A stretch of 64,000 nt of DNA, taken from Macrostomum lignano (lineage: Eukaryota). Positions 30,021 through 63,105 of this stretch are shown one piece after another. The stretch covers positions 62,001 through 126,000 of the forward strand of contig NIVC01001391.1 in NCBI GenBank assembly GCA_002269645.1, in the 5' to 3' direction. The number at the start of each line of letters is the position of its first letter. The stretch's first letter is position 1. A program made the position numbers and the translations under genes. The notes under the pieces are model-generated. The model was not told the origin of the DNA, made no database searches, and saw nothing but the letters and a program-made list of their open reading frames with translations.

Positions 30021-31642
30021 GTTCCGATTTCTGCAATAATTTCGTCATAAGACGGTATCTGATACTGCTCTCTCATTATGTTGGCATTCAGATGCTGAGG
30101 GTCTAGGCAAAGACGTATAGTCTTGTCTGCCTTCCAGACGACGACCACATTTGAAACGTACTTCGTGGGCTCATCACACTTGGTGATGAGTCCATCCGAA
30201 ACCAGGCGATCTAATTCAGCCTTCAAAGGTTGCATTGCTGCAAACGGGATTCTTCGAGGGCGATCCGTCCAAGATTCTTTGTCATCGCGCAGGCTGATGT
30301 GATAACTCCCAGGTAAGCAACCTGTTCCTTCAAAGACATCGGGATACTCTCGAAGAAATCTTTCATCTGTCCACGTGGACTTAAACCCTTCAGGTTGAAC
30401 AGAAACTCCGAAGTTGAATTTCACCAGGCCTATCTCTTCTGCAGTTTTCCATCCGATGAGTGGAATGAGCCTCTCTTTAATCACAATAAATTCATTTTCA
30501 TGCTTGACTCCTTCATATTCCAGTTTCAATTGTACCTTCCCTGCGACTGTTAGGCGCGACCTTTTATAGCAAAAGAGTCTGCAAGACGTTGCTTGTATCG
30601 ACGTGTTTGGTGCAATCCGCCTAAGCAGATGTTCAGGGAGTACATTTGCGTCCGCTCCTGTGTCGCATTTGCAATTCACCAGCTGACCTTCGATTTTGAT
30701 ACCAACAGTTGTTCTACTGTCTCTGTCGTTGCCACCCGGTCGCAGAGATGCTGACATGACCCACGAATCTTGACGATCAGATTCTGAGCTTTCATTTGTA
30801 TTTCGATCCAAGGCTCTTACGGTCTTATTCCGACAAACGTTGCTGAAGTGGTTTTGCTTTCCGCAAGATTTGCACGTCTTGCCATATGCAGGGCATGAAC
30901 CTTTCTTGTGTTTCTTACCACAGAATGAGCAACCCTCCGACTTTCCTACCATCGGCTTTCCATTGGACCCAAACCTTTTGTTCGGTCGTCTCTCCTTGTA
31001 CTTGAGATCTGGTCTGCCTGTTGAGCGAGGCTTCACAACAGAATTGACTTCTCTCTGGATGTATTTCGAAATCTCTCCGGAGGTGTTTCCCGTCATGATC
31101 CGCACTTGGGTCTTTGATGATTCACTTGCACGGCAGATAGATATAGCCTTATCTAGCGTCAACTCCTGCTCACGTAGAAGCCGTTCTCGCAACTCTGTGT
31201 CTCTGATTCCGAGGACAATCTGATCTCTGATTATTGATTCGTTCACCGTCAATTCGTAGGCTGGCTTCTCGAATGAGCATGTCTTGATAAGTTGTTTCAG
31301 GCCGCTGACGAATGAGTCAATGCTCTCATGCTCGTTCTGCCTGCGTTGCCGAAATTTGTAGCGCTCGAAAGTTTCGTTCGCACTCGGCTTGCAATATTCT
31401 TCGAACAGTTTCGTCACTTTTGACAGCTCTTCGTCTCCTTCCGATTTCTCGAAAGTTGAATAAATCTCACGACCTTCTTCTCCGATGGCTGTTAGCAGTG
31501 TCGCTATTTGCACTTTAGCCGGTGATTCGTCACGCTTTGTTGCAGTCATATAGAGCTCGAACGCAGAAATCCATTTACTCCAGTTTTCCGCCTTGTGCTC
31601 ATCAAAGCAGAATGGCTTTGGGGGTTTGAGCCCGCCATCCAT
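29948..31642 (-). CDS. Gypsy gag-protease and start of RT (continues into pol via a 1-bp frameshift near 30020)
   Basis: ATG at 31642; IRDQIVLG; zinc knuckles CSFCGKKHKKGSC and CKSCGKQNHFSNVC; protease CDTGAD; RLCLDPQHLN. Confidence 0.93.
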   Translation of the reverse strand: MDGGLKPPKPFCFDEHKAENWSKWISAFELYMTATKRDESPAKVQIATLLTAIGEEGREIYSTFEKSEGDEELSKVTKLFEEYCKPSANETFERYKFRQRRQNEHESIDSFVSGLKQLIKTCSFEKPAYELTVNESIIRDQIVLGIRDTELRERLLREQELTLDKAISICRASESSKTQVRIMTGNTSGEISKYIQREVNSVVKPRSTGRPDLKYKERRPNKRFGSNGKPMVGKSEGCSFCGKKHKKGSCPAYGKTCKSCGKQNHFSNVCRNKTVRALDRNTNESSESDRQDSWVMSASLRPGGNDRDSRTTVGIKIEGQLVNCKCDTGADANVLPEHLLRRIAPNTSIQATSCRLFCYKRSRLTVAGKVQLKLEYEGVKHENEFIVIKERLIPLIGWKTAEEIGLVKFNFGVSVQPEGFKSTWTDERFLREYPDVFEGTGCLPGSYHISLRDDKESWTDRPRRIPFAAMQPLKAELDRLVSDGLITKCDEPTKYVSNVVVVWKADKTIRLCLDPQHLNANIMREQYQIPSYDEIIAEIGTLLCSQLLMRLRVFTRLHWIMKVR

Positions 31643-41203: not shown

Positions 41204-41945
41204 CACGAAAGACTACCAAGTGTGGCGACGGCTTTCCTTTCCAATTGCCAAAATATTGGCGCGGCGCTTTTTCTGCCAGCTGGCAGACTTTTTGGCAAAT
41301 TTTGGCAACAAGAGTAGTATTAGTATATTACACGCACCCCTCATTTTTACATGTAAAAATGAATACAGTCCCCACCCGTCCTAACCCGCTCAAGCGAGCC
41401 GCCTACAAATCGTACCCCTACTTATCTTATACTCGCACCTGAGTAGGCGGTAACCAATAGACTATTCACCAAGCACTTCAAATGCCGAAACCGTGTTAAA
41501 CGCACGATAAGGTATACGCTTTACTCGGTCTTAGGCAACACTACTCACGAGCGCGGCCTACGTCACTTCCAGTAATAGATATTGAATAGATTATAATAAC
41601 CACTTGCTCCGTAAATAAACCACTTGCATTCTAAACCAACTCTACGATCCATACTCCGTTCCTGCCGGACCATAAGTGCTACATTTCCGAGAAAAGACCT
41701 TGCCCCAAACGCTAGGGCGCACACAGCGAAATGTACACCCCCCGCCACATTAATCGATTAAAATCCGATTCTTATCAACCAGCTGCACACAACTTTTACC
41801 CCCCACCCCCACCCCTCCCCACGACTTGAGGGTTTGAACAGATACAAACTCCTAGACGCAAGCGCTAAAAACGGCGTCAAGTCGGATTCTCGAGTGAATA
41901 GTCTGGCAAGTTTATTAGTTCACCGAGTCTCGTATAACCATCTTA

Positions 41946-42544: not shown

Positions 42545-45500
42545 AGTGTACTCGCCAACCTGCTAATAAAAATTATTATGCTGTATTGTTAAACTTCTCG
42601 AAACGTCTACAATTTTAGTGTGACGTTGCTGGTTTAAAGTGGCCCCGCAAAAGGGCCGTTGGACTGCAGTTTCTCTACAATTTTTCATTTTAAATTCTCC
42701 AATAGTTTATTTTAACGTTTACTCGTAGTAGCGCCCAACGAATCTGTGTCAACTGCTAATTCACTGCGTACTTTGCAATCCTTGCGCGCGACCGTAGAAA
42801 ACTTGCACGATCGATAATTTCAAGTTCCCCCGCCAGCCAATGAAAACTCTCCGCGTGTATTATGTTAACCCTTCTGCGCTCTTTATTTAACCCCGCCTGG
42901 CGGCGGGCTGGGGGTTTTTTTTACTTCTGTCCTGGCGTTCCTTCGCTCCTGCGTTCCTTCGCGTCTGCCTTTGCTTCCCTTCGTGGCCTCTCGTTCTCCT
43001 TATCTCTCGCCACGGCTCCACTCGCCAGCCAGACTTGTTTACGCCTCTCCCGCCAAGTTTTACTCTACCACGGCTAGCGCCAGCTCTCCGCCGTTTCTGC
43101 CTACTCACGACCGCTACTCACTGCCATTGCCTCATCGCCATCCTTCATCGTCTACTCATCCTATCATTAACTCGTTGTTGCAGCCGCCAGTGCCCATATC
43201 GTTATTGCCTTTGTACTACTATTAATATTTTAAAGAGAAAAATATAAAGCCAAGACTTCAACGTTAATTAATCATCGGTCTATTACCAAGTGCTACCGCT
43301 ACACGAAACCGCTACACCGCCATTGTTCAATTCACCTTCCTTTTGGACTACAACGACAATTCTCGTCAAAACGGCCCTTTTAAGGGTTATAGCCACTACA
43401 ACTCAAATCGTGACATTAGGATCAGGATAGTATTTTTCATTTCTACGTAGTACAGATTAGAACCAAGGGACCGTCACTAGGCTTCAATATTTTACCCATA
43501 GAACTCAAAACTTCGATACCAACCACTCATATTCGTACTTATACTTTTTCGCATATTTTCTGTTACTTTTCATCCGTCTCCGCGGCATCTACACATATGC
43601 ATATCTTGCACTTTTGTTTACATTATCCGCCCTCTCGATTGAACGCCGGCTTTAGTAGCTACTTCAACCAACATTGAATCCGTGTATTTTAGCACTACAA
43701 GTTTTAATACATTCATTGACAAACCGGTATATTTTTGTATTAAAATTTTTTAACAAGTAAATAAAATAAATTTGAATAAAAGTTGAATTTAAAGAACTAA
43801 AGCAAATTACATGCGATTTAAAAAATATAGCCGCGTCAAGATTCCCGCGGGGTGATTCGACTCCCACCCCCCTTGCTCCTACCCCCCACTTAAGATAAAC
43901 CAGACCCCATAATACAGACCCCCCCGCACGCCAGAAGCCCTAGAACTAACCACACCACCGAAAACTCAGACCCCGAGTTTATCACCCCTCACTTTAGCCC
44001 TAAGACAAACAAGATCCAAACCTATCCTTTAACAACGCCATATTTCCACCGATGACACAACAAGACAGAGGCACCCCCGCTAGCAAGGCCTTACATCGAA
44101 CGAAGGCCTTGGAACTACGCCACACTGTATTTACATGTACGATACTGCACACAGAGCGAATCCAAAAGAATAATTATACACATATGTTCAAGCCTTCACT
44201 AAATAAAAGTCGCATACGAAAAATTTACAAATACAATTCCCCTACAGTCCACATAAACAAGCCGACGGCGGCGACGGAGTCAACCAACCCACACGCCGAG
44301 TCCCGAATGCCTACGACAGGTCCGCATCCTAAAACCAAGGAAGATGACATACATTTACCAGGTCAATTTATTACGCTGCAATCAATATAAAATTCACTAA
44401 CCCTACCACCACCAGGGAATCCCCTTCCGGATGGCGGCTTCGGAATCTAAAATTTGATTGTATAAATAACTCTTTGTTGTAACACAAACTCTACCACCAT
44501 AGACTTGCATATTTCACCCTAAACCACTACCAGCCTGTCCCCCAACCCGATATGACTGTGTACACCCTACAAAGAAGAGCATGTTCTTCTACGTAACACC
44601 AACCGTGGAAGGTTGTGGCGGTCCAGGAGTCCGCCCCCGTTCGAACACGAAATTTGTCTGCAATTTAAAAAAATAAGATTTCAACTGTTTTACACCCTCA
44701 AGTTTTAATCAATGCCATGCAGTCTTGAATGCGTGGCAGCATAAAGTAGAACTGGTTCATGCATTAACGGACCCGACTCACGCTAAATAACATGAACTCA
44801 ACTACCATAAAACCTCGTAACTCCATCTTAAACCGGCACGTGAAGAGCACCTCCCAAATCTAGCTACTTATGTACATCCCGCCAAAATAAAGAGCATGGT
44901 TTCCGATGTATCACTAACCGGGACACGTGGCTGCGGTGGTCCGGGAGCTCGCCCTTCTCCGATCGCGCAATTCGCCTGAAATGTCAAATAAGATTCCAGC
45001 CTTTATATCTTCAATGTTTAATCAATGCCAAGCGACTACTGACCATTGTAAGCTGTTTTGGGCTGGACGAAACACACGCAGCCTGAAATACGCAACAGCA
45101 GAAAATAGAACTGGGCTACAATATTGAACTGGGATCACATTCAATTAAAATACAATATCCATACCTCGTTTCGAGTCCCACGACCACGTCCGCGAATCTA
45201 CGATTCAAGAATAAAGAACAGACAAGTAAATTTATTTTCATACGGACGAGTGAATTATACCACACCAAAAAGCTCATCTCCACTCACCATGGCTAAAAAC
45301 TCCTAAAATGAGAATGGAAATTCTTTATTTATTAATGCAATATGTGATAAGAAAAGCATACGAATATTGTCTCGTACCTCCCTTCCCTGAGCCACTATCT
45401 CCGGCACCACTTCATGCATTCGCGCAAAAACTGTCGTCGCCCACTGGTGCTGCAAAAGTACTCGGTCACTCGTGCATAGTTGCTAAAAAAGGCAAAATGA

Positions 45501-47166: not shown

Positions 47167-48718
47167 TATAACAGTTTTTATTCCTGTTATCTTCTGCTCA
47201 CAAGTCAGAAAGAATTTCGAACACACCTGGCCTCTGAGGGCCCTGTTATGAGTGTGAGGCTCACATCTCCGAATCTCTCTCTCTGTGCCGCAAATTATCC
47301 AAAACAGTGTATTTTATAGTCAAGCAAGCAAACTGGTTTAGTTGACAAAATGAAGAGCAATGCATAGTTTGAGCGGGGCAGGGTTATCGCTCGAGCATTT
47401 TTCTCTGTCCCGTTGTTAGGCAACCATATCACCCCCCCCAAAGCATTGCTGCGAGTCTACTGTGTCACGCGTTCGCAGGCTGCTGGCTTGGCCTTCGAAC
47501 CTCAGCTTTGTTATCTGCCCTTTAGTGTAGAGCTGGTCTGGCTGGATAGAACCGGTTGAGACGAGAGGAGGCCGTTGTTTTTTCGCTTCGATGTAAGCAC
47601 AATTTCAGTGCTTACATATCTTCCCCTTTTTGGAGACTGACACTCGTGTCAGTCTGACACGAAGGTGTTGCTTCTCGATGTGACTTCGTCCTTGTAATAA
47701 GCAGTTTCATACTTGAATTCGTCACTAGTTGTTGTGGCTGAGCTAGTTAGTCGGCTGATTGGTTGTGCGTCGTAGTGAAGTCGATTTGGGCTGGGTGTGT
47801 TTGTCGGAAGCTACAAACCAGCAAGTCCCTTCTGTTTGCAGTACAGTTTGTCTGTGTTTTTCATGGGGCTCTTTTCCCCCGAAGTAGTCGTCAGTAGTTA
47901 CTCAATTTTCAATTCGCGGATATCTTGAAATACTGTTACTGCAGAACTCCATCAGGCTTGCCTGGTTGCACGTCCAGTGTCGCAATCTGGCAGTGTTACT
48001 AATTGAGTTTAAATTCTCACTTGTTTAATTATCCGTTTTGTACGCCAAGTCGTAGGCCAAAATTCGAAGAAATGAAAGCCAGATGTTGTGTTTGATCCAA
48101 AGTTGTGCCTTGACCGACTTAAACACTACGTGCATAGAAGATGAATAGGTTTTGTACCGATATCTCTTGGATTTCCATTGAACGATTCGAGTAGAGCGGC
48201 GGCTGCACATTTGTAACGGCTTGATGCGTCACAGTCGCGTCTTAATGTCGTCAAGCATACCACGTCGATAATTGTCTCTTGGCTCTCTGGAGAATCTCGG
48301 TTAGTTGAGGACGAATTAGTTACGTTGGGCCTCCGATTTCCGATGATGTTGAAACACGTTGCAACTTGGTCTTCTTGCTTGCTTGATGTGATGACTCGTT
48401 GACTTCACACTGACCTTGATCGAGCACGTTCTTTCTGACCTGTGGCAGGATGATGTTGTCTAGCGATGGAGAAGGCTTGTTGCAATCACCCCTAGTCAAG
48501 TTGGCGGAACTAGGTGACTCACTCTCAGGGAACCAGATATAACAGTTTTTATTCCTGTTATCTTCTGCTCACAAGTCAGAAAGAACGTGCTCGATCAAGG
48601 TCAGTGTGAAGTCAACGAGTCATCACATCAAGCAAGCAAGAAGACCAAGTTGCAACGTGTTTCAACATCATCAGAAATCGGAGACCCAACGTAACTAATT
48701 CGTCCTCAACTAACCGAG
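47167..48718. other. Inserted segment with a 48-bp direct repeat (47167-47214 and 48538-48585) and a roughly 140-bp inverted duplication (about 48290-48436 vs about 48575-48718)
   Basis: TATAACAGTTTTTATTCCTG...TCAGAAAGAA occurs twice; GAGCACG/CGTGCTC mirrored arms with about 2 mismatches. Confidence 0.8.
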
Positions 48719-49511
48719 AGGAGGTGATTACTTGACCTCTTTTTACTTGATACGTACAAACAACACGGAATCACAGTATCACAGCGGGAGATAAAAACCC
48801 CACTAACACTCGCGTATTCACCAGCCACCTTACAGTGGCCCCAATTAAAAACAGCGCTCCTGCAGGCTAGGGACCCGTCTCAATGGCGGGAAGAAGCGAG
48901 ATAGGCATTTAGAAAGCCACTCCAAAGAAGGGCATAAATGGGGCGGTTGTCTGGTGGTTGAGCGGTTCATCGGATCCCGAGGACCAATCTAATTGCCACA
49001 TGACCACCTCAGAAAACCCCAAAAGCACCCGTCATTGTATGGTCTGGGCGTGATCCACGCTCGGACTACATAATGAAGGGGCGGTCAAGGCAACACAAAT
49101 AAAATTAGAGCACCATCGAAGGAGCTAGTAAAGTTTCAGAATGAGTAAGCCACAACACTAGTACAAAAATCCAACCAAATAATCCAAATTTAACAATTAA
49201 GCGGACAAATTCACGCTTCACCTTACAATTTATTTTTGATTATTCGTACACAGTAGTAGTAGTGCTATCAAAGATGGACAGAAACACGAGAAAGTAGCAC
49301 GCATATGGCTTGTAGCATAAAGTAACATTAGTTCGCACGCATGATTCTGCGCATAATAAATCATAGCTTAGACCTGTAGCATACGGCAGTTTTTAAAAAA
49401 GAAAAGTTAAATAGAACAAATACTAAAAATGCTTATATATCTCCACAATAAAAGATGTTTTCGTCATTCCTTTCGCATAATAGTTACTTAATTAACTGAC
49501 AGGTTCCCATA

Positions 49512-49751
49512 TTAAGCAGATAGGGGCCGATAGCGGTACCGGCAGCAAAACGCCACGATTAAAACGCAGACAATGAGCAGGAGAAAACCGCCTCCGCCCA
49601 CTCCACCCAGCACACCTCGGAGCGCTCGGAGCCCAGAATCCGTCGCTAGAGCTTGATGGGATAGCTCTCCCACGCGCTCCTCCAAGGCCGATAGGCGCCG
49701 ATCCATCTTCGAGAGTAAGCTAGACAATTGCTCCACAGCATGCTGCGACAT
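49512..49751 (-). CDS. Hypothetical 79-aa coiled-coil + TM protein
   Basis: LSSLLSKMDRRLSALEERVGEL heptads; FLLLIVCVLIVAF TM; CCRYRYR tail. Confidence 0.55.
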   Translation of the reverse strand: MSQHAVEQLSSLLSKMDRRLSALEERVGELSHQALATDSGLRALRGVLGGVGGGGFLLLIVCVLIVAFCCRYRYRPLSA

Positions 49752-50040
49752 AGTGCCAACGTCACTCCCGCAAAAGCGTAGACAGTATAAGCAGTCAAAT
49801 TCTATATCCAACACTTGCCAGCGCCGGGGACTCCCTCTCAATTAACACTTATACCAGCCACAGTGGAGGGAACCCCCCCTAATAAAAAATCGATCGGCCC
49901 ACAACCGCCACCCCCCCCCCCAAGAGGGAAAGGGCGATAAACAACAGCGGAGGCCCCTGAAATCCACTAGCGTACATCAAAATAGTTCAGGCTGTACATT
50001 GCCACACAGAATCTAACTTAGAAAAAATCATTCCAGCGCA

Positions 50041-50364
50041 ATGGCTGACCACGAGTTGCGCCCCTATTCAGCACACGATGCCTATCAGAGGCGACCAGGC
50101 ACCCGATTTAGGGATGTCAACATACACGGGCAGCCTTGTTACAAGGCAGACGCCCAAACGCAAGCGACGCCAGAAGACATTGACGGGGGACGCTCAGTGG
50201 CCGCCGGAACGTCGGACCCCGAAGGGGGAGTCATTAGACTCCCCAGAAAAGAATGGCCAGGGGGCAACTACGCCCCCACCCCTGACGATTCATGGCCGAC
50301 ACTGCAAACCCGACGCCTGTTTGTCTGGCGTAAACCCTACTGGGCGCCCCTGGATGAGGAATGA
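50041..50364 (+). CDS. Hypothetical 107-aa protein
   Basis: Clean ATG ORF; no recognised domain. Confidence 0.4.
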   Translation: MADHELRPYSAHDAYQRRPGTRFRDVNIHGQPCYKADAQTQATPEDIDGGRSVAAGTSDPEGGVIRLPRKEWPGGNYAPTPDDSWPTLQTRRLFVWRKPYWAPLDEE

Positions 50365-51729
50365 ATGAAGGCGACGCTGCAACAAATTAACTAACTGACA
50401 CACTTCACATAGTACATAGCAATATCAATCTAATACTCGTACATAGCACTATCAATCATTAATAATCAATTAATCACTTGGCTAATTTTAATTTCTAACC
50501 CTATATCGTTAATATTATTATGTGCATTTCATTTCAGACTCGGAAGACTAATCCTCGTTACACAAGGATTTCAAAAAAAGGGGGAATAATATAGGGATTA
50601 GAAATTATGAAAGTTGGGACAAATAAGAGTTCGCTAAAGGGCAAAGTAAGAAGCAAAAAACAGGGGGCGAAAGTTCAATTTAAAGATAAGACACCTAAGT
50701 GAGAGAAATTAAAGAACGGCAAGAAAGTGAAATAAGCTATAGATAAGAAACTAACTTTGACTTTCCCCCAAGATTTCAGACTAAAACCAGATGATATCAA
50801 ATCGGCCGAGGTACCAGGCAGAGCCAGTCGGCGCGGTGCCAGGAGAAGCAATACGACACAAAGCCCGACTGGCGGGCGAGATAAAGCAATGGTCAACAGG
50901 CCAAGGTCAGCGGTGACGAACGACCCCAGGGAATAAGAGGACGACTCACCGAGGGACGCACGAGGGGTCTGACGTGCGAATCGACTCGAACGATGAACCC
51001 TGAACTGACCTTTAACCATCGCCTGATGCGACCAATTAACCGATAGCAGATTATCTCTCTCGCCCCGTAGCAACGCGCTAATCTAATGTTGCTGCGTCTG
51101 TTTTGGACACCCCGCCGTGGCTAATCAGCGGCGGGGATGACGTGTATCAAATAATCTATATAATAGACACGGCCTCGGCCCCCGAAATGGGCAACGGAGA
51201 AAAGAGTCAGAGTTAAGTCTGGAAGTCATATGCACTTCACAAAACCCTTGAGTTTACTTAATCTTCATCATTTGTGCCGTAGGCGCGAGTAATAAGCAGC
51301 CTAGTAGCGATCTCTTGTTGTAAGCTCTCTTAGGCTTCGAAGACGCAAAAGTAATCCAACAAGACCGCTAGACGACTACGAGAGAGAAGCATAACCGAGG
51401 CCCGAGAGAAAAGTCTTACAGCTATCAAACTAAAGCAAATAGGCGATCCGATGCCGCTGCTTCGCATCTCCCGCGCCACCGAGGAAGGCGACCTGGGCTT
51501 TGCCTAGTGTGTTGCCATAAAACCTACACTACCATGTTTCACCTTTCGAGCACTGCCTAATCAACACCCGCGTAAAGTTGACACAAGCGAGCTGAGGGGA
51601 CTTAGCGGTCTTTACCACCTATCCGTTCAGCTCACAAGTCTTTATCGTCAGAAGGAAAGCAAGACATGGCGCCTCGGCCTCGCCCTTCGCTCGCTGACAC
51701 TGGTCGACGACGACCCGAAACACCTGCCG

Positions 51730-52098
51730 ATGCTAGCCCAAGCTTTGCGGTTTCACATCCCAACTACGTCGACTCTAATCGCCGCCACCACCGCAACTGA
51801 GGAAGAAGAGTCAACAACTACGACGACGCTAGTGAAACCAGTTAGCGGACGAAAACGACGACAAGGCCCAACTCGTCGCAGCCCCGCCAAACGCCCCACC
51901 AAGACGACTGGAGCAGCAGCAGCAGCAGCTGAGGACTGGATCACGGCGACTCCCGTCAAAGATCTTGTAAGCGGTGTTACCAATACTGTCCCCAAAGCGG
52001 GTAAAGCTGTAGCCTCCAACCCAGCGCTAGGGGACGTGGACTCGGGGGCCTCGACGGAGCCCATGGACAGCGAAGATGATGAAGTCTTCGCACAGTGA
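51730..52098 (+). CDS. Hypothetical low-complexity protein with a basic NLS-like stretch
   Basis: GRKRRQGPTRRSPAKRP, T/A runs, acidic end; AATAAA just downstream. Confidence 0.35.
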   Translation: MLAQALRFHIPTTSTLIAATTATEEEESTTTTTLVKPVSGRKRRQGPTRRSPAKRPTKTTGAAAAAAEDWITATPVKDLVSGVTNTVPKAGKAVASNPALGDVDSGASTEPMDSEDDEVFAQ

Positions 52099-52324
52099 GG
52101 GTCTACAATAAAGCTTTTTCTTTGAAGTCTAGGTTTTTCATGGTAGTATCATAGGCTTCATAGCAGAACTAAGGCAACTGGCAAACCGTTAGCGTTCACT
52201 TGGTGGCGGGAAGCTATACCTATAACTCTAACTACCATTCTCCGTAAACGGAAACGCATCACCAAGAAATATATAAAAATCTTAACTGTTATACTGAATT
52301 TTTTCTCGTATTTATTCTTTTCAG

Positions 52325-52905
52325 AGATTGGTCCTACTAATAGTGCAAGCCAGAACGAGTACCCCTCCAGGAGAAAAGTTAGATTTAAATAGGCTAAAAA
52401 ACGTCTAGGCCAGGCGGGAATCCCCTCCAAATTATACTCCGCCAAGCCAAGTATGCTTCGTATCGGACTGCCCCAATTTTCATGTCAGTTCTACCCCGGA
52501 GGACTACTCACGCTTTATGGCTGTAGATCCCGAGTCCAACTTCTACGTGCCCTGAATTTCATACACCTTAAAGTAATTAAACTAATCAAAACATCGATTC
52601 GTATAATCAGCTCTACAACCGTTGGTCTGCTCCACTATCCTGGACTCAAATTTTCGACCCTGAAAAACTTTATCGGGCCTTTTCACACAGCTCGGCTGTA
52701 TTACGACGCGGAGATATTCCCACAAGCTATCACCCTCCGTAGTACTGCTCCACTCAATAGGACGGTGTGCAATATTTTTCATTCCCTTAAGATCGTTATA
52801 ATAGGTGCAGAGACTACTAGCCAGATTTTAGAAATGATCAACATTGTTCAACAATTGTGTCAGGAAGCCGCTCCGAAACCAGAATTTGTTCCAATTCTAG
52901 CCAAT
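52325..52905 (+). CDS. Divergent TATA-binding-protein-like domain (1-bp frameshift in the A6 run at 52396-52401)
   Basis: KLDLNRL ~ TBP KLDLKTI; MLRIGLP ~ IMRIREP; FYPGGLLTLYGCRS ~ IFSSGKMVCTGAKS; YDAEIFP ~ YEPELFP; NIFHSLKIVIIGA ~ LIFVSGKVVLTGA. Total length about 190 aa, with a 3' splice-site-like TTCTTTTCAG at 52324. Confidence 0.7.
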
Positions 52906-53672
52906 ATGACGAGCCAGTCTCGCATTTTTCTCCTGGAGGGCGTAATCGGTGCCGGGAAGTCGACGTTGCTTCGAGAACTGGCTCTCACCTCCCGCCTCGA
53001 GGGTTGGGCCGACAAAGCCGTCTTCGGTCCCGAGCCTGTTCACCAGTACGCGCGACACCCGCTCCTCCCGGACTCGGTAAATCTGCTTCAGTCATTCTAT
53101 CGAGGCGAGCTTCCGGCCGTCGCATTCCAACAGCACGTCTCCCACGACTTGCTCGACAGACAGCAAAGTAAGTGGTACTATAGTAGCTAGAAATTCCTTT
53201 TGTATAGCTCCTACTACATGTACAACCAATGTCGAAAGACAACACGGTATAGCTACTTTTGCCAACCTTGTGTTACCACCCAGGTCCGGAATGAGGTTAA
53301 CCAACAACCCTCGGGTCGGCTCGAGCGTTCCAAGACGTACTACACCGTCAAGGCTCGCTGTCTGACGCCGAATGGGTGATTGCTCAGCGCCAACTAGCCG
53401 TCCTCGAAGCGACTGAGGTACCCTTTACCGGCGCGAACATGACTCTTATTTACCTGCGCATTGACCCGGAGTTGGCCATTCAACGCATCGCCCAGCGCGG
53501 ACGCAGCGGTGAGGAGACTGGCATCTCCCTGGACTATCTACGATCGCTAGACGAGGCGTTTACACGCCACTACCAGGACTACTCGAACGTACACGAAATT
53601 CTAATCAGATCGGATACATCTACGACCGATCTAGCCCATCTTGTTGGCGGCATCATTCGTCGTGAGCTCTGA
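52906..53672 (+). pseudogene. Deoxynucleoside kinase (dNK/dCK family), split into N-half (52906-53167) and C-half (about 53301-53672)
   Basis: LEGVIGAGKST P-loop, EPV, NLLQSFY, AFQ, SARAF...GSLSDAEW, LIYLRIDPE...RIAQRGRSGEE...DYLRSL; GTAAGT at 53168. Confidence 0.85.
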
Positions 53673-56600
53673 CATGCACTTGATATTAACAACAACGATT
53701 TTCTGCTGTAGTAATAAACACCTAAATTCAATCGAGCCCCTACCAAGTTGAAAAAACACCACCTACCACTACTACCCCCTGGTACCTGAAGTAAAATTCC
53801 CATGCGTACCCAACTATTTTTTGTTTATCATGATGATCCATTCGAACTGCTGCAGACCCCTAAAAACACAACCATTGACTAAGTTATACGATCCTATTCT
53901 TTCAACCACCATCGACGACCTACTACTTACCAGCCTTCTGTTCATTCCCAAATATTCAAATTGTCTACATAATTGTATCTCTGCAAAGTAAAATACAGTT
54001 TAACCACGCGGCGGAGGACATTTTCGGACTGTTCCACCAAACTTGAGGCTGTGCATTCCTTCCTTATTTTTGCCACCGAGCAAACTATTTAGGCGATTAT
54101 CACAACCACCCCATCGCCAACAATTGCTAACAACATTCCAGCCGCCGTCGACGACGAAACAAATCAGATGCCCCGTGTGCCGGCAGAGATTCAACAGTCA
54201 AGCCGCCCTCCATGGGCACTCGCACAATGACTCGTGCTATCAACCAGACCAACTTTTACTTCGAGAACCAGTGCGTCGGCTAATCGAAGAGGACACTCCA
54301 CCAGGCTGGTCGGTACAACATACCGAGTCCGCACACCGAGGTCGGGCGAATTTTCTGACGTTCACGCCACTGCTGGACGAGGACGATGGCGAGACCGAAC
54401 CACCCAGCGAGTTACTTCCACAACTGCAAGTCCCACTTTTCCGTCTTTTTCACTCTCTCGGATCTGCGGACTGTTTACTCCGTACATGTATACATCCTAA
54501 TGTAAAAATGTATCGTACTCGTTATCCCCCCGCCAATGACACTGCTGCTGGTGAATCCCCCCACAACGAAGAGGTAGAAGTAATCGCGCCCTTCTTCAAT
54601 TCCAAAGTCGTTATGGTCTCCTTTGATGCGAATGCTCCAGCCGCCGGCCACCGTGTACTTCTTCTCTCTGAGGACGTTTTCAACCAATGGTACAGCGAGG
54701 CAACAAACGATCTGGTAGCTAAATTAGACAACTTTCAGTCCCGAGGTAGCAACTGGAAGTTCCTCACCGTTGTCAAGGTCGACGTTATGCTGTGCATATT
54801 TTGCCGAAAATATCTACTACTACAGTCGAGCAGCAGCAGTCGTCGGCAGCAGCAGCAGGACGTGTGGGGAGCGGGTTGCGGGGCGGCGGTGGTGTTGGCG
54901 GCGGGCGTGGCGGCGGCGGCGGCGGCGGGCGCGCAGGCGGGCGGCGGTCCAACAGAATCCGCACCGATCCGTTCCGTTCCATTCCGCGTTCCACTGGCTG
55001 TTGGTCGTATGCCGGGAGCGGTTTTGTTTCTACGCCCGCACCGAGCAGATAAGTATGATTGTTTTATGTATGCTGTCGTGTCAAGCGTCTTTTCCTCACA
55101 GGTCGAAGGGCAAGCCCGTAAAAGGCGAAAGGCGTCTTACAGGCCTTGGCTGAAAAGCTTTCGATTTACGCGCGCCGGAGTGACTCGTCACTCAATTGGG
55201 AGCTACAGAAAGTTTTGCCGGCTGAACCCTCGAATTAGACTGATGCGTGTGTTTGTCTGGAGCCATGCCACGAATACTGCCGTGCTGTTTTTTAATTTCC
55301 GTCGTTCCACTGGTGACCTTGCGCCAGTCAATTGTCTGTTCATACCACCTTACGCAGAATTCAAGTATGGACACTACATGGCGGTGCTAAATCTGGATAG
55401 GCTGTTGAGTTCTCGTGCTAAACGCCGGCGCTATTGTCCTGAATGTCTGGCGAGCTTTATTCACACCACGTCTTGGGATTATATCTTGAAAGAACGTGTG
55501 TGGCCAGACGACGGAGGAGCAACCAGGCGGCGGTGGCGGCGGCTTCATTCGAACGCCAAAGCCAGTCACGGAGGAGGTTTTACCAGAGGAGGGCAAGGCA
55601 CTTTTGTCTTTTTCAGCCTACGAGACTCGACTGCCGCCGCTGTATTTGGTTTATGCTGATATTGAGAGTCTACTTGTACCTGTTGAAAAGGCATCGGCGG
55701 GCCTCGTCAAGGGCCTGCCAGCGCCTACGGCTAACAGCCGTGTTTTACAAATTCACGTGCCCGTTTGTGTGGCCTTTCGTTTGGTTGTCGATCCGGATTT
55801 GGATAGTGTAACGAGGGAGGATTTGTTGCGCAGATACAATACTCCATGCAAGTTGTTTTATTCTACGCCTGGTACAACATATTGTATTTGCAGGTTTCTC
55901 TTGGCTCTGCGCGAGCTTGCATTCGAAGTAACTAATGCGACTAGCAAGATGACTTATAGACCAATGCTTAGAAAGTATCTAGGTCAGCGTCCTAGCGCAG
56001 ATCGATGCTACGTCTGTCGTCGCGAGTCTCAAGTCTGGGATCATTGTCATTTGAGTGGTCTTCCACGTGGAATGGCCTGCATGTCGTGCAATCGAAAACT
56101 TGCCCTGCAGCGCTATCGAATTATCGTCTACCTGCACAATCTTCGAGGATATGACGGTAAAATAATTGTTCGTGAGGTGTACAATGTGTTTAGTGGAGAA
56201 GACGACGTTCAACTGCACGTTCTGCCCGAGTCGAGGGAACGGTTTAAGACGTTTTCATTAAAGTTCAAGGTACCGCTGGCTGGCAGTCAACGGCCGCAGC
56301 AACAAAAGCAGAAGAAGAATTTTGTTTGGCTTGAAATCTGCTTCAAGGACACGTTTGCGTACTTGTCGACAAGTCTAGCTAGTCTGGCTAACCGTTTGAC
56401 GCAGGAACAGTTGGTACACTGTCGGGATTTGCTGAATGTTTATCCTAAACTCCAACTGTCTACTCTGCAGCAGAAGGGAGTGTTTCCGTATTGTTACTTG
56501 GACTCTGAAGAGAAGTTGGACAGTGTGACTGAACTGCCATCGCGAGATTTGTTTTACGACGCAATGACCCGGTAAGAGTGTTCTAAGGAGGAGTACACAC

Positions 56601-58038
56601 GCGCTCAGCAGAGTTGGCAAGAGTTTGATTGTGCCAATTTGCGTGACTATCTGACTGTGTATTTGCTGTTGGATGTACTACTGTTATGCGACGTATTTGA
56701 GAGTTTTCGTCGGACTGCAATTCGAGAATACGGTTTGGATGTGTGTCATTTTCTCGGATCGCCAATGTATAGTCTGGCTGCGTGTCTGTTGAAGGTGAAG
56801 AAGCCGATCGAGTTGTTTACAGACGCTCGTATGTACTCCGAGGTTGAAGCTTCGATTCGAGGTGGGTTCAGTTTCGGCACTCGTCATCTTACTACGGCAA
56901 ATAACCCATTGGTAGAAGAATGCCGTCGGCAGCTGGATGACGACGACGACGATTTAAGATAACTACGGCGGAATGCACCGTATGGCACTCACTTGGCCTA
57001 CCTTGATGCTAATTCTCTTTAAGCCAGTGGTATGGTGCAGGCACTACCGTATAAGGCCTATCGTTGGTTGCCCCGTGAAGTGATTGAAAATCTATCAGTT
57101 GATGATGAGGCAGCTGAGTTGGAAAATCCGAACAAGTCGAGCAAGTTTTTGGCTTGGTTGTCTAGCTATTGCTAGAATGGACGAGGGGCGTTATTAAATG
57201 TCGATCTTTACTATCCAAAGTTTTTGCACGACTCAACTGCCGATCTACCTCTGGTTATTGGCCATGAAAGAATTGATAGTGCCTATTTAACCGAGCATAT
57301 GAAGCAGGATTGGGTTTGTCTGCAACGCCAGCTTGATCCCAGGAAGAGGAATGCGGAGGTATACGAGGACGTAAAGCGATTCACTTCTCCGACAAGGAAA
57401 CTAATTGGTTCTGTTACTCATAACACAGGGTACATAGTACATCATCGAGCATCGCGTCTTTACCTCGAGTTAGGCATGCGCGTGACGCGTGTTAATCGTG
57501 TTCTCGAATTCGTAGAAGGTCCTATCCTACAGGAATACATTGAACATAATATTCTTCGGCGGTCTGAGGCGACTAGCGATTTTGATCGAGATTTCTTTAA
57601 ACTATTGAACAATGCTGTGTACGGCAAGTTTCTGCAGCGAGTTCGAGACCGACTCAGCTATCGCATGTGTACTACTGCCGAGAAGTTGGAAACGTATGTC
57701 GCTAAAGAGGAATTTATGGACGTGATTCTGTATACAGAACGTCTAGCGGGCATGAGTTTGACTCCTCGTCGAGTATTGCTAAACAAGCCAATTCTGATTG
57801 GTAGCGCTATTCTGGACCTCGCGAAAACATTTGTCTACGAGTTTTTCTATTCAAGGATTCAATTCCATCGGTCGCTTGCTTCTGCCCGCGTGCTTGGTGG
57901 AGATACGGATAGTTTGATCCTGGCATTGGTTATGGCCGACCCGGAGACGAGTCCTCAGGAGACATTGTTTAAAGACTAGGTGGAGTGCGGTTTGTTCGAT
58001 ACTAGTAATTATCCACCTTCTAATCCGCTTTATACAAC

Positions 58039-61000
58039 AACGAGGCCAACTCCTCCGATGGAGGAGAAAGGGGAAGAAAGTAGGTATTCGTCGATCTCGT
58101 CGATCTTGCGTCGCTTTGCGGAAGTCGCAGCAACAGCAGCAGCAGTCCCAATCGACGTGGACGGACCGGCGATCGCCAGTGGTCCTTCAGTGGCCGAATC
58201 AGCGCTGGCATTCGCAGCAGCCGCCGACTCCTTGCGGATCTGGTATGCTGCCATGTCGCTACCCTTGGTGATGTACTTCACCACGTACTTGATGGCCCGA
58301 ACTGTCGCGCAGATCTCGACATTCAGGTGACAGCGAAACTCGCGCAGCAGCGCTGGGCAGTACGGCACCACCCAGCGGTTGTCAAAGGTGAACATCACCC
58401 TTTGACCGCCGCGCAGCTTTGCGAGCTTCGTCACCGTGAAGCCGCCCATCTCGACGGATCTGCGGCAGTAATGCGGGTAGCCATCCTCCTCTACCTTTGT
58501 GGCGGCCAGGAACTCCTTGGGTAGCGCTTGCTGCACCTGCCTTTCTCCATGCTCGCCGCGGCAGAGTTGAGCTGCTGTCCACAGGGACCGTGCAACATGT
58601 TCTCCGCCACCAGCTGATGCAGGTCGGCGTCGGCGACAGGGTCCGGGATCTCCGCGCTGATGACGGCGTCGTACTGATCCGGCTTCAGCTTGTTCGCCAG
58701 CCACAGCAGCGCGTGCACGTGGGGAAGACCTGGATGTGGATAAAATTTAATTTTATTGAAATAAACGAAATTATGGAGGCAATAGATAATGCTATAGTTT
58801 AAAGCTTAAAAGCACACTTGCCTCGCTTCTGGTACTCCAGCGAGCAGACTCGAGCCAGAGTATCTCCAAACAGACTCTTCAGCCTGTTTAGGAAGGCCTT
58901 CTTTTTCAGCTCGAACACCCGGGCGGTGATGTCCGGCCGATCGACGGCAGTCTGCCCTGGAAGCAGCTCGGCCAGAATTTCCGGCCACTTCGGGTTGCAT
59001 GTCATCGTCAGAAACAGGTCTGGGCGGCCAAAGGCGTGAAGGTCCGTCAGGATTCCGACCTCACTGCACTCGGGCAAGTTGAAGCGTCGGACATGCTCCC
59101 CAGATGGGCGGGCATCGGGGTTGATGACGACCTTGGCTCTCTGCAGCTGCGAGTCGCTGCGCAGCAAGTCGACTGCGGACTTCAGGCTGCGCACGTAGCT
59201 GTTGCAGTCATGCAGAACAGCTTGCAGCTCCTGCAGCAGAATTTCGTTGAGACCAGCCGTCCATTGCAGTCTGTTCTGCAGCTCTTGGTCCACAAAGAAG
59301 ACCTGGCAGAACCTGGCCGCATCCCCCGGGTCCGGCAACAGGCTGCCGATCCGATGGTGCATCTGACCATGGAGGATGAAGCTCGGGTTCCACCCGGGCT
59401 GCTCACGCTGCCTGGAACCAAGCGAGGTCATATGGAGCGCGCCGTTGTACTTCCTGATGTCTTTCAGGAACTGTGAGCTGAACGGATGCTCGCCAGTCAG
59501 CAGCCTCTTCAGAACATCAGGCGGGTCTCGGCGCTGCTCCAGGACGGTCTGTCAGTGAAAAAAAATACTCAAGTAGCTTTTTGTGGAGACTGGCTGCAGC
59601 AAATCATGCAATTGTTTATGAATCCATTGGCGGGTCTAAGGTTTTATACAATATTCATTTTATACAGTCACCGGTATAACAAAGCATCAATAAGGCAGCA
59701 ATTTGAGTAAACCAAAATAAAAATGTTAACTCACCTTTCCAGCATGACAGCAAATGCTAGCTGGCTCGTCCTTCCAGCGTAGCGCCCTGCAGTGAGGACA
59801 TTGGCGGTCCATGCGACCGAGAACATGTGGCTGGTGCGCCAGCTCCAGCAGTCTGTGACAGTGAAAAAAGAGAATTTTAATCATAAATCATACATGGATA
59901 ATAAAATCTAGTCGTACATTCATAAAGTTTATTGGTGGTTTCAGCGAATGAGAAGCTGCACATAATATTAGTAGAATAAAATATAAGAACCCTTACCTGT
60001 CTCGGCGCCACTCTGCTTGTGTCTGTACACGACGTTCGCGGTCGTCAGCGGACTCAGCCGCGCGATGCTGATTATGGCGCTGCCGCTGCGCCTCCAGCCG
60101 ATGCAGTTGGACCGCCTCATCCTCGGCTTTACGACTTTCGGCAGCACGCAGCCGGTCTTGGTCGAGCCGATGCTGGCGTTCCACCTCGTCTTCAGCATCG
60201 CGGCTGTTGGCTGTGCGCATACGACTCGCCTCAAGACGACACTGGCGCTGCACTTCGTCCTCAGAATCATGACTTTCGGCAGCACGCAGCGGGTCGTGGT
60301 CAAGCCGATGCTGGCGTCATTAAAAGACTCGCGGCCTTTGGCTGTGCGCTGCCTCTGCGCCTCCAGGCGATGCAGATGGACTGGCTCGTCCTCGGCGAAA
60401 CGGCTTTCGGCAGTCCGCAGCCGGTCCTGTTCGAGCCGATGCTGACGCTGCACTTCACCTTCAGCCTCACGGCTCTCGGCCCTACGCTGCCGCTCCCGCT
60501 CAGCGCGCGCTGCACGCTCCTCGGGTGTCTCCGACGCCCTGCGCCTTTTGGCTTCCGATGCAGCACGGGTAGAGCGGGAAAGGCATCCTCGACCTCGCTT
60601 AGGCATTTTGATTGTTCAATAATATAATAATTAATAAATAATGCAAATAGAAATAAGCAAAGAGCACTGTTCGACCAAATCGGAAGGTTTGAGAAAAATT
60701 TATTATGATATGGAATGAAATACGCTTGTAGAACTGAATTGAAAAGTCGAGTCATTAAGTAAAGGCCAAGTGTACTTGCTTTTTGTCAATAAAAAATAAA
60801 TATGATAATGTGCATTTGGTAAGACATGTACATGCAGCTGATGAGCAAAAGTGATAAAAGATATCGATTATTTTAAGCTAAAAAAATTAGAGCAGTCAGT
60901 CTTACAACTGCAAGGGACTGACTGACTAAAGGCACCGATAATAAAACAAATTGGTGGCGTAATCGATTTCTTAGTAGGTCAGTATCAGTTAAAGTTTTTG

Positions 61001-61100
61001 AAGTTAACAGTATGGCTACGCAATCTGAACCTTCCAATATACAGCCACCCACTCCCCGCCAATACACAGCAACCCCCCTCCAATGCACAGCGGCAATTGA
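58039..61100 (-). mobile_element. Internally deleted Helitron (Rep retained, helicase absent) inserted in pPolB
   Basis: RepHel motifs; 3' hairpin CTCCTCC-gat-GGAGGAG (58050-58066) ending CTCGT on the minus strand; candidate 5' TC at about 61100. Confidence 0.85.
58085..60606 (-). pseudogene. Helitron RepHel N-terminal/HUH Rep coding exons (60606-59997, 59852-59735, 59548-58822, 58729-about 58085)
   Basis: ETPEERAAR charged repeats; LGRMDRQCPHC...CCHAGK; PDLFLTMTCNPKW (motif 1); EYQKRG|LPHVHALLW (motif 2); KYVVKYITKGSD (motif 3). Frameshifts at about 60315 and about 58520. Confidence 0.88.
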
Positions 61101-61679
61101 ACCCCCTTGGACTTTGACGCCCTAACTAACTTGCTAAAAAATTAGTATTAAAAAACTGAGAATGAGAATTTAATGAGAATTAAAACTATAGAATCGTTGT
61201 TTTATACTGAGCTTAACAACTTATATTCACGAACTCAGCATTGAAAGATCTTTCCAGTAATATGTCTCTTTTGAACAGATAGCGTTTTAAAAAGCCCGAT
61301 TTCAAGCATTGAACTCTTGGGTGTACGTTCACTGCCTGGTAAAAAGAGGCAGTAATAAAAAGGCGCCTATAGTTAATAAAAAACTGAACAGTAGCCATAT
61401 CATTGCGCAATTGTCTATAAAGTCAGTCAGTGAGCCAGGGTTCAAGTGTACACACGCAGCCACTGAGAACGCGACCTACTACTGGAGAGAAAATACACTG
61501 CCAAGATAGAAAAATTTTATGGCGCAATCACTAAAATTGATGCAAATTTTCAGCTCCAAGCAGAAAGAGGGGACAATTAAGATTATCAAAGGTCAAGACC
61601 GCCGTTTTCTGCATTTTTAGGGATCTTAAAAATTGAAAATGAAAGATTAAAATAGCCTAAAGCCATCCTCGGAAAATTT

Positions 61680-63105
61680 TCAGTTTTCCCATATAAGTTT
61701 CAACGCTGAGTTGCAAGTATTCTGGGAGGAGTTATGCAACAAACGGACAAACAGACAAACAGACAAACATCGCACCAACTTTAGTATTTAGAGAAGAAGA
61801 TATTCTGGGAGGAGTTATGCAACAAACGGACAAACAGACAAACAGACAAACATCGCACCAACTTTAGTATTTAGAGAAGATTAAGATAGCATCCAAGCTA
61901 CAATAAGTTGAAGTTTAGTCTATGGCCATAGACATATTGAGCTCTCACTGCGAGAAAAAGACACTAATTAGATAGGGAAAATACAGTTTTTCGAATATTT
62001 AATCCCCTTAGCAATGAGCTAGAGCTCATTAAAATAGCTATAAACCCAATCCGGAAAATTTGCAGTTTTCCCATATAAGTTTCAACGCTGACTTGCCAGT
62101 AGTCTAGGAGAAAAATTGCAACACGCAGACAATCATCGCACCAGTTTTAGTATTAAGACGAGGCCAACTCCTCCTTCGGAGAAGAAAGGGGAAGAACTCC
62201 CATCACCGGAATTCCATTCCCTGAACTCCATCAGCCTAATCCCATTTTCCAACAGCTCTCCGCGCAATAGAAATCGTCTCCGTGAAACTGAACACCATCG
62301 AAATCGTCTCCGTGAAACTGAACACCATCGAAATCGTCTCCGTGAAACTGAACACCATCGAAATCCTCTCCGCAAAATAGAAATCCTCTCCGTGAAACTG
62401 GACTCAATCGAAATTCCTCCGTCAAACAGAACTCAGCTCTCAGAATTCATTGGTTAGGGTTAGGGTTAGAGCTACACACAGCTGCATGTTGAAGGGGACC
62501 GGTAAAAAAAGCATTTTTTCTCATTCAGTCAATATCATGGTCTCAGTTAGAGTTACCAAAAAGATTGCGCAATCTAATTCAACCCTCCAATACACAGCGA
62601 CCGATCCCCTTCCAGTACGCAGTGGCAATTAAAAGTTGAACTGATATCTTTCCCTTATGCAGAAAAGCATGCTTTCGAATCCTCATATTTTGAATTTCGA
62701 ATTATTTATAGCTCGTAGCAAAAGCTCAAGAAGTTGAAGCTTAGTCTATGGCCATAGACATATTATTATTTCTCAAGTGCTCACTGCGAGAAATATTTAT
62801 TTATTTTTAGCTCATAGCATCCAAGCCACAATAAGTTGAAGTTTAGTCTATGGCCATAGACATATTGAGCTCTCACTGCGAGAAAAATACACTAATTAGA
62901 TAGGGAAAGTACAGTTTTTTGAATATTTAATCCCCTTAGCAATGAGGTAGAGCTCATTAAAATAGCCTAAAGCCTGCTCCGGAAAATTTGCAGTTTTCCC
63001 ATATAAGTTTCGACGCTGACTTGCCAGAATTGTAGGAGTTTACTTGCAACATACAGACAGACAGACAGACAAACATCGCAGCACTTTTAGTATAAGGAAA
63101 GAAGA
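61680..63105. mobile_element. Cluster of non-autonomous Helentron/DINE-1-like (HINE-like) elements
   Basis: Direct repeats at about 61889-62153 and about 62816-63093; (GACA/CAAA)n microsatellites; shared CATCGCA...TTTAGTAT ends; a second copy of the Helitron 3' end at about 62158-62197. Confidence 0.6.
62270..62400. repeat. 30-bp tandem repeat (AATCGTCTCCGTGAAACTGAACACCATCGA)n
   Basis: About 4 visible copies. Confidence 0.9.

What the first reader, a model, noticed from the sequence alone, without database searches (positions are those of the whole stretch)
52453..53672. In-frame TBP-like::deoxynucleoside kinase fusion with an apparent intron
Seen: the TBP-like domain runs without a stop through a short linker (AAPKPEFVPILAN) into MTSQSRIFLLEGVIGAGKST. 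The kinase is then broken at a consensus GTAAGT donor (53168) and resumes about 130 bp later. The obvious acceptor at 53283 gives an in-frame stop, so the true junction is unclear. Inference: either a genuine bifunctional protein, or loss of a stop codon between two adjacent genes.
Basis: partly seen in the sequence, partly recalled or inferred. Interest (0 to 1): 0.7.

Follow-up and report, generated by a model that had tools for sequence, protein, structure and literature searches.

The report
Flatworm Maverick's spliced TBP, separate kinase
In a broken copy of a virus-like Maverick element of a flatworm, a TATA-binding-protein-like exon reads into a nucleoside kinase gene, likely by accident in this one family; what six related families share is a splice site pair that would join the TBP-like exon to an upstream predicted single-strand DNA-binding protein, and four families examined carry a TATAAGCA box before structural genes that this protein likely recognises.

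Summary
The stop-free TBP-to-kinase frame and the intron (53168-53283) are real; RNA contigs join exactly these sites. The puzzling stop comes from short deletions in this copy, which is a broken member of a ~21-kb Maverick family. The fusion is not conserved: 0 of 5 sister families have it (frame offset, stop, or no kinase), and the 'linker' holds a used splice acceptor 5 nt before the kinase ATG, so the kinase is also made alone. What is conserved is upstream. In 6 of 6 families the TBP-like exon begins at an acceptor with no start codon, in phase with a donor in the tail of an upstream gene whose predicted fold is a giant-virus/T7-type SSB; the join was seen in 2 of 7 RNA runs (one study). 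The TBP fold is complete, but DNA-contact residues are changed. TATAAGCA is the top shared 8-mer of the structural-gene halves (13 sense, 0 antisense, 0.2 expected; 0 in early halves). Best reading: an SSB-TBP chimera acting as a late-promoter factor, untested; the kinase tail is incidental.

The parts
41312..41376 (.). Left end of the Maverick element; 65-bp terminal inverted repeat
   Evidence: Shared sequence with siblings starts at 41312-41313; 65 bp, 94% match between the two ends of sibling C362
46756..47053 (+). Exon 1 of the upstream SSB-like gene, frameshifted near 46890 in this copy
   Evidence: tblastn in two frames; spliced public proteins P0153, P0157
47167..51420 (.). 4.25-kb insertion inside exon 2 of the SSB-like gene, absent from siblings
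51421..52098 (+). Rest of SSB-like exon 2: OB-fold core, low-complexity tail, acidic end
51967..51972 (+). Phase-0 splice donor inside the SSB tail (K-x-L|V-S), used to both downstream acceptors
   Evidence: joints in X1, X2; same donor in 6 of 6 families
52325..52869 (+). TBP-like exon after the acceptor at 52323-52324; no start codon before codon 44; broken by a 1-nt difference near 52395 in this copy
52870..52905 (+). 'Linker': carries the kinase's own acceptor (AG 52899-52900), 5 nt before the kinase ATG
   Evidence: joint in X1; P0158 ends across it; P0002 starts at it
52906..53167 (+). Deoxynucleoside kinase, first coding part; 2 nt shorter than siblings near 53157
53168..53283 (+). GT-AG intron, found in this family only
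   Evidence: joints in 6 of 7 RNA-type runs; kinase uninterrupted here in sister families
53284..53672 (+). Kinase last exon; 31 nt shorter than siblings near 53308; AATAAA at 53713-53718
54508..57979 (+). Protein-primed DNA polymerase B, in pieces in this copy
   Evidence: PF03175 hits; 991-aa open frame in a sibling

Best explanation
This is a broken copy of the replication unit of a Maverick virus-like element, in which the kinase is a separate gene with its own splice acceptor and the stop-free TBP-kinase frame is likely an accident of one family, while the TBP-like exon is likely made as a spliced extension of the upstream predicted SSB and would act as the element's own factor for late promoters marked TATAAGCA. 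Steps. Shown: one TATA-led unit SSB > TBP > kinase; a donor in the SSB tail is spliced to the TBP acceptor (in frame) or to the kinase acceptor (stop after two codons); the kinase intron is removed; the window copy is transcribed and spliced but frameshifted. Inferred: the in-frame splice replaces the SSB's acidic tail by a full TBP saddle (in this family followed by the kinase); the kinase is translated from its own ATG on an mRNA that starts at, or is spliced to, the acceptor at 52900 (spliced-leader trans-splicing or re-initiation); the chimera gathers on displaced single strands during protein-primed replication and recruits host initiation factors at TATAAGCA before capsid-module genes. 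My odds: copy broken 0.95; TBP-kinase frame incidental 0.75; SSB-TBP chimera is the functional TBP product 0.65; it recognises TATAAGCA 0.45; replication coupling 0.3.
For: Junction not conserved: families C, D offset by one base without a stop, E and F with a stop, B without kinase. Acceptor 2-5 nt before the kinase ATG in A, C, D, F, 36 nt in E. Stand-alone spliced kinase P0002 (228 aa, 5'-partial, starts at the acceptor) and P0158 (SSB ending across donor-to-kinase-acceptor) are public records. K-x-L-V-S is invariant in an otherwise unalignable tail and is coded as a GT(A/G)AG donor in phase 0 in 6 of 6 families; the TBP exon starts AG|Arg in phase 0 with the first Met at codon 21-44. Join seen in X1, X2. 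TBP model pLDDT 93.4, TM 0.77 to TBP, E 2e-9. Upstream protein: DUF2738/DUF5871 clusters, ASFV CP312R Z 9.5, Enc34 SSB 4.9, T7 gp2.5 4.3. TATAAGCA ranks first of all 8-mers shared by four late halves: 13 sense, 0 antisense, 0.2 expected per strand, 0 in early halves; each 9-158 nt before an ATG opening 60 aa or more.
Against: The SSB-to-TBP joint was seen in only 2 of 7 RNA-type runs, both of one study, with 30 letters on the short side; X1's contig over the TBP exon carries the 1-nt frameshift, so no contig shows an open chimeric mRNA; contigs of X6 and X8 cross this interval unspliced and X5 shows no joint there. No SSB-TBP protein was found in the protein searches. No RNA was laid on sister families. 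The SSB model is weak (pLDDT 55.9). The motif was first seen by eye in four regions; 10 of the 13 sites lie outside them. A motif shared by late genes could be read by host TBP or by a helper virus. Many DNA-contact residues are changed, which may mean lost binding. Three sibling copies hold a 460-codon open TBP-kinase frame, so a triple fusion is probably made in this family. The TBP tree does not resolve the family order, so 'stop lost' has no proven direction.
Confidence: 0.55

Rival explanations
1. A selected bifunctional TBP-kinase (or SSB-TBP-kinase) protein that brings nucleotide salvage to the viral DNA.
For: No stop in 8 of 8 near copies; frame open from acceptor to stop in L003, L004, L007; one X8 contig spans both domains with the intron removed.
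Against: 0 of 5 sister families fused; the linker is an acceptor in use; best database hits are single-domain proteins; the alignment search of longer proteins found none, which the tool calls weak evidence.
Confidence: 0.12
2. The unit is an operon resolved by spliced-leader trans-splicing, and the leader's terminal AUG supplies the missing start codon of a free TBP in phase 0; the SSB donor is a side route.
For: The leader ends in ATG (PMC8629364, passages) and its gene is in G000 (30 matches, control 0); phase 0 fits; SSB and kinase are annotated as g1 and g2 of one name by a pipeline that cuts units at leader and poly(A) signals (PMC5730564, passages).
Against: It does not explain the donor kept in 6 of 6 families; no leader sequence among the loose ends shown at the TBP acceptor (tables were cut); no TBP gene of that unit turned up in the look-ups.
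Confidence: 0.18
3. The TBP-like domain no longer binds DNA and works as a decoy for host TFIIB/TFIIA or TBP regulators; TATAAGCA is read by host TBP or a helper virus.
For: The second-stirrup glutamate is invariant in 13 of 13 rows while both central asparagines, one wedge phenylalanine and several minor-groove residues are replaced (residue roles recalled).
Against: The replacements are themselves invariant across families (Q55, T63, S97, T98, N150), and three wedge aromatics remain; the looser motif TATA[AT]GCA is not enriched in six loci of the second Maverick lineage (2 seen, 2.7 expected).
Confidence: 0.15

Closest known systems
Maverick/Polinton (adintovirus) elements of animals
   Same: pPolB, rve integrase with chromodomain, A32-like ATPase, DJR capsid, terminal inverted repeats, ~21 kb. 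A TBP-like gene is named in the legend of Fig. 5 of PMC8502044 (section 3.4 read; figure not held, so the element is unknown to me).
   Different: Alternatively spliced SSB-TBP-kinase unit, ATG-less TBP exon and a conserved late box; not found in my searches.
Beta/gamma-herpesvirus TBP mimics (ORF24, BcRF1, UL87)
   Same: Virus-coded TBP-like domain inside a larger protein, reading a variant TATA box (TATT) at late promoters after replication (search listing and abstract starts only).
   Different: Here the partner domain is a predicted SSB joined by splicing, the box is TATAAGCA, no other viral initiation factors were identified, and binding is untested.
Cellular TBP / TRF2 and giant-virus or mirusvirus TBPs
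   Same: Full two-repeat saddle.
   Different: 17-22% identity to host TBP, changed DNA-contact residues, no start codon of its own.
T7 gp2.5-like SSBs of giant viruses (DUF2738/DUF5871, ASFV CP312R)
   Same: Predicted fold and acidic tail; PMC4889955 (passages) places gp2.5-like SSBs in giant viruses.
   Different: Sits in a protein-primed element, whose SSBs that paper describes as unrelated to OB folds; the tail can be swapped by splicing.
Deoxynucleoside kinases (Dm-dNK, TK2, dCK)
   Same: P-loop, EP, FQ, DRC/ERS and RGR lid motifs.
   Different: Intron gained in one family; Ala at the SARY position suggests a Dm-dNK/TK2-like, pyrimidine-leaning range (residue rule recalled).

Membership tests
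Conserved bifunctional TBP-kinase fusion | In-frame, stop-free junction kept in diverged homologs | tested here: not met
   0 of 9 sister loci in 4 families; fifth family lacks the kinase
TBP fold family | Two-repeat saddle of about 180 aa | tested here: met
   pLDDT 93.4; Foldseek TM 0.77, E 2.4e-9; profile hits PDB TBPs over 15-176
Canonical TATA-binding TBP | Four wedge phenylalanines and two central asparagines | tested here: not met
   Two Phe and one Tyr kept, one lost; both Asn replaced (roles recalled)
Canonical TATA-binding TBP | Acidic second stirrup for TFIIB | tested here: met
   E132 invariant in 13 of 13 rows (role recalled)
Viral late-promoter TBP mimic | Binds a variant box and drives late transcription | not testable with these tools
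   Only co-occurrence with TATAAGCA
Deoxynucleoside kinase PF01712 | Profile score and catalytic motifs | tested here: met
   P0002 E 1.2e-25, over cut-off; alignments
Deoxynucleoside kinase PF01712 | Phosphorylates deoxynucleosides | not testable with these tools
   needs assay
T7 gp2.5-like SSB | OB fold of the gp2.5 type with acidic tail | tested here: met
   CP312R Z 9.5, rmsd 4.7, 173 aligned; gp2.5 Z 4.3; Atlas TM 0.66-0.69 to DUF2738/5871; low-confidence model; no Pfam hit
T7 gp2.5-like SSB | Binds single-stranded DNA | not testable with these tools
   needs assay
Maverick/Polinton | pPolB plus rve integrase | tested here: met
   PF03175 E 7e-21; PF00665 E 5e-7
Maverick/Polinton | DJR capsid and packaging ATPase | tested here: met
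   Atlas 0.98 to clusters with DJR-like_dom on 24-30% of members; Pox_A32 only E 0.024
Maverick/Polinton | Adenain protease | tested here: inconclusive
   No Pfam hit; His/Asp/Cys motifs seen by eye after the capsid gene
Maverick/Polinton | Terminal inverted repeats | tested here: met
   65 bp, 94%
Maverick/Polinton | 6-bp target-site duplication | tested here: inconclusive
   Flanks do not match within C362 or C297; one 6-mer matches across two contigs

The most novel reading that the evidence does not exclude
A lineage of animal Mavericks encodes its own late-transcription switch: alternative splicing swaps the SSB's acidic tail for a TBP of altered specificity, so a promoter-binding factor is built into the protein coat of replicating genomes and turns on TATAAGCA promoters of the capsid module only on replicating templates.
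Probability: 0.3. Interest if true: 0.82.

Novelty: new variant of a known kind. Interest (0 to 1): 0.62.

Why it matters
How Mavericks time their capsid genes, and whether they need a helper virus, is open. A conserved late box plus a candidate cognate factor, in high-copy transcribed elements of a laboratory worm, makes this testable. An SSB-TBP chimera would be a new way of coupling replication to late transcription. The TBP-kinase fusion as first proposed matters little: it shows how packed viral genes fuse by chance.

Tried and rejected
First alignment mixed strands and was redone pairwise. L010-L012 lack the junction and L009 lacks everything upstream of the last exon: left out of counts. 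Broken family-C-like copies L075, L082, L084 and family-B-like copies L067-L069, L079-L081, L083, L085 were not counted at the junction. Of 75 TBP matches I fetched 30 as loci plus 20 more; of the 22 family-B loci only L046 was read in full, the others compared by identity. Assembly error as the cause of the breaks: rejected, the 31-nt difference is in DNA-like X17 and in X1, X2, X12, the 2-nt in X1, X5, the 1-nt in X1, X5, X8. Stop-start re-initiation as a conserved device: the overlap exists only in family A and L066 (2 of 7 loci). Purposeful intron read-through: the 117-nt intron is open in 5 of 8 copies, but 15% of shuffles are too. No run was on record as RNA; RNA status rests on several GT-AG joints absent from X17. 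No relatives in viral or metagenome contigs; no earlier notes; no paper for DUF2738. No fold of the spliced chimera or of the TBP-kinase fusion was run. No complex prediction was sent.

Full report
OBSERVATION. The frame from 52453 runs without a stop from a TBP-like domain through AAPKPEFVPILAN into a deoxynucleoside kinase; donor 53168, acceptor 53283 and the stop behind it are as described.

THE COPY IS BROKEN. A DNA search of the own genome gave 15 matches, 8 of them near copies across the junction. Against L003-L008 the window (and L002) is shorter by 2 nt near 53157 and 31 nt near 53308; against L003-L005 and L007 also by 1 nt near 52395. In L003, L004 and L007 the exon from the acceptor at 52324 to the donor, and the last exon, are whole numbers of codons without stops. 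The differences are in sequencing runs, so they are alleles, not assembly errors. The upstream gene has a frameshift and a 4.25-kb insertion, the polymerase is in pieces and a Helitron sits at 58041-63104.

THE ELEMENT. Siblings span about 21 kb between 65-bp inverted repeats and carry pPolB, dUTPase, an A32-like ATPase, integrase with chromodomain and a DJR-like capsid gene: a Maverick/Polinton. Public protein records identical to family members are labelled Macrostomum lignano by their sources.

SPLICING. Seven runs guessed as RNA and one DNA-like run were laid on sibling loci. The kinase intron is joined in X5, X6, X8 (three studies) and, on the window-type allele, in X1, X2, X12 (two studies); not in X3; not in X17, which covers all 30 bins. 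Two more joints start at a donor equal to window 51967, inside the tail of the upstream ORF: one to the acceptor at 52324 (X1, X2; in frame with TBP), one to an acceptor at 52900 inside the 'linker' (X1), 5 nt before the kinase ATG. Both have 30 letters on the short side and come from one study; X6 and X8 cross this interval unspliced. Public records agree: P0158 ends KDL-PI, the donor-to-52900 product; P0002 is the spliced stand-alone kinase, 5'-partial, starting at that acceptor although the frame is open far upstream. It is g2 of a name whose g1 is the SSB; the pipeline behind such names cuts units at leader and poly(A) signals (PMC5730564, four passages read). I infer, not show, trans-splicing at 52900.

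THE FUSION IS NOT CONSERVED. A search with the TBP exon gave 75 matches, including five sister families at 34-39% identity. C (L066, L070) and D (L071, L074): kinase one base out of frame, the TBP frame running on to 309-349 codons. E (L072; L073 frameshifted): stop before the kinase, same frame in L072. F (L076-L078): stop. B (L046): stop, no kinase. So 0 of 9 junctions and 0 of 5 families are fused. None has the kinase intron. Among 1.84 billion representatives the best hits cover one domain only. The tree does not order the families, so the direction of change is by majority only.

WHAT IS CONSERVED. In 6 of 6 families the TBP exon begins after a pyrimidine tract and AG, in phase 0, with Arg, and has no Met before codon 21-44. 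Starting at Met 44 would drop the first strand, helix and second strand of the saddle. In 6 of 6 families the upstream ORF has a phase-0 GT(A/G)AG donor at K-x-L|V-S, residues that are invariant in an otherwise variable tail; L066 and L072 are frameshifted before it and L078 had no hit. If only Val-Ser mattered, donor-like codons in all six would have odds near (1/6)^6 (my estimate, relatedness ignored). The upstream gene has a TATA box and a conserved intron. Its protein resembles giant-virus DUF2738/DUF5871 and folds like ASFV CP312R (Z 9.5), Enc34 SSB and T7 gp2.5 (Z 4.9, 4.3) from a weak model; that CP312R binds ssDNA is recalled. PMC4889955 (passages) places gp2.5-like SSBs in giant viruses and calls SSBs of protein-primed viruses unrelated to OB folds.

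THE TBP. The exon folds as a full saddle (pLDDT 93.4; TM 0.77). Against host TBP it keeps two wedge Phe, a Tyr for a third and the stirrup Glu, and replaces both central Asn and both minor-groove Leu (by invariant Gln and Asn). Roles of these residues are recalled. This fits changed specificity or lost binding.

A LATE BOX. Looking before the structural cassette I saw TATA(A/T)GCA in four families. An unbiased count of all 8-mers ranks TATAAGCA first across the late halves of A, B, C, F (4, 4, 2, 3 sites): 13 sense, 0 antisense, 0.2 expected per strand; 0 in 39 kb of early halves; 10 of 13 lie outside the regions first seen. Each lies 9-158 nt before an ATG opening 60 aa or more, among them minor and major capsid genes. 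The SSB promoters use TATAAA or TATAAG without GCA. These sites lie beyond the window, in siblings. D and E late halves were not fetched.

MECHANISM. Shown: unit order, three splices, broken window copy, non-conserved TBP-kinase frame, conserved donor and acceptor, folds, box. Inferred: the chimera is the working TBP product; it binds TATAAGCA and recruits host factors; the SSB half ties it to displaced strands; the kinase and dUTPase serve nucleotide supply. The nearest working analogy is the herpesvirus TBP mimic at TATT late promoters (listing and abstract starts only). Rivals: leader-supplied AUG for a free TBP (leader ends in ATG, PMC8629364 passages; gene present), a decoy TBP, or a selected fusion.

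PRINT. Searches for Polinton with TATA-binding protein (5 papers), Maverick with Macrostomum (2), Polinton/TBP/thymidine kinase, splicing and SSB terms, and late promoter (listings only) showed no description of this arrangement. PMC8502044 (passages and section 3.4) lists a TBP-like gene in a figure legend, so TBP in such elements has precedent; the figure and supplements were not seen. Subscription journals and Repbase are not covered.

VERDICT. The fusion as proposed is real in sequence but family-specific and probably incidental. The locus points to a more interesting, conserved spliced SSB-TBP arrangement with a candidate late box. New variant of a known kind; interest 0.62.

Noticed in passing
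L095-L111 (e.g. L100:4019-4582): A second Maverick lineage carries a stand-alone TBP-like ORF with its own ATG and stop, converging on pPolB, at many places (most of the 150 scored matches; 17 loci fetched). The first repeat is nearly identical among subfamilies, the second varies widely. No SSB or kinase hit in the 7-9 kb fetched.
   Followed up: partly
window 53168-53283: The kinase intron is present only in family A: a likely recent intron gain in a virus-like element; 117 nt and open in 5 of 8 copies.
   Followed up: partly
L066, L070, L071, L074: The TBP frame runs 120-170 codons through the kinase gene in another frame without a stop, so long C-terminal tails seem tolerated.
   Followed up: no
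window 52098-52184: 87 nt with an AATAAA after the SSB stop are present in the window, L002 and L006 and absent in L003-L005, L007; may change read-through into TBP.
   Followed up: no
window 17778-41203: A separate Maverick (DJR capsid, pPolB, PLA2-like ORF, integrase remnant) with a nested Gypsy-like element at 27555-31642 abuts this element's left end; nested insertion not resolved.
   Followed up: no
window 47167-51420 and 42619-43415: Two stretches absent from siblings; the longer has an internal repeat of its start near 48538 and is unidentified; an X1 contig runs into its right end.
   Followed up: no
L018:4195-4580 and 6022-6092: Further GT-AG joints in X2 and X12 in the left part of the element, on both strands: unannotated spliced genes.
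   Followed up: no
L016:6012 / L032:4550: The same 6-mer flanks opposite ends of two near-identical copies on different contigs; a target-site duplication with swapped flanks is possible.
   Followed up: no
P0004, P0006-P0008, P0033: Unnamed relatives of the TBP and kinase in Logan and ENA, as separate proteins; three TBPs group with family E.
   Followed up: partly
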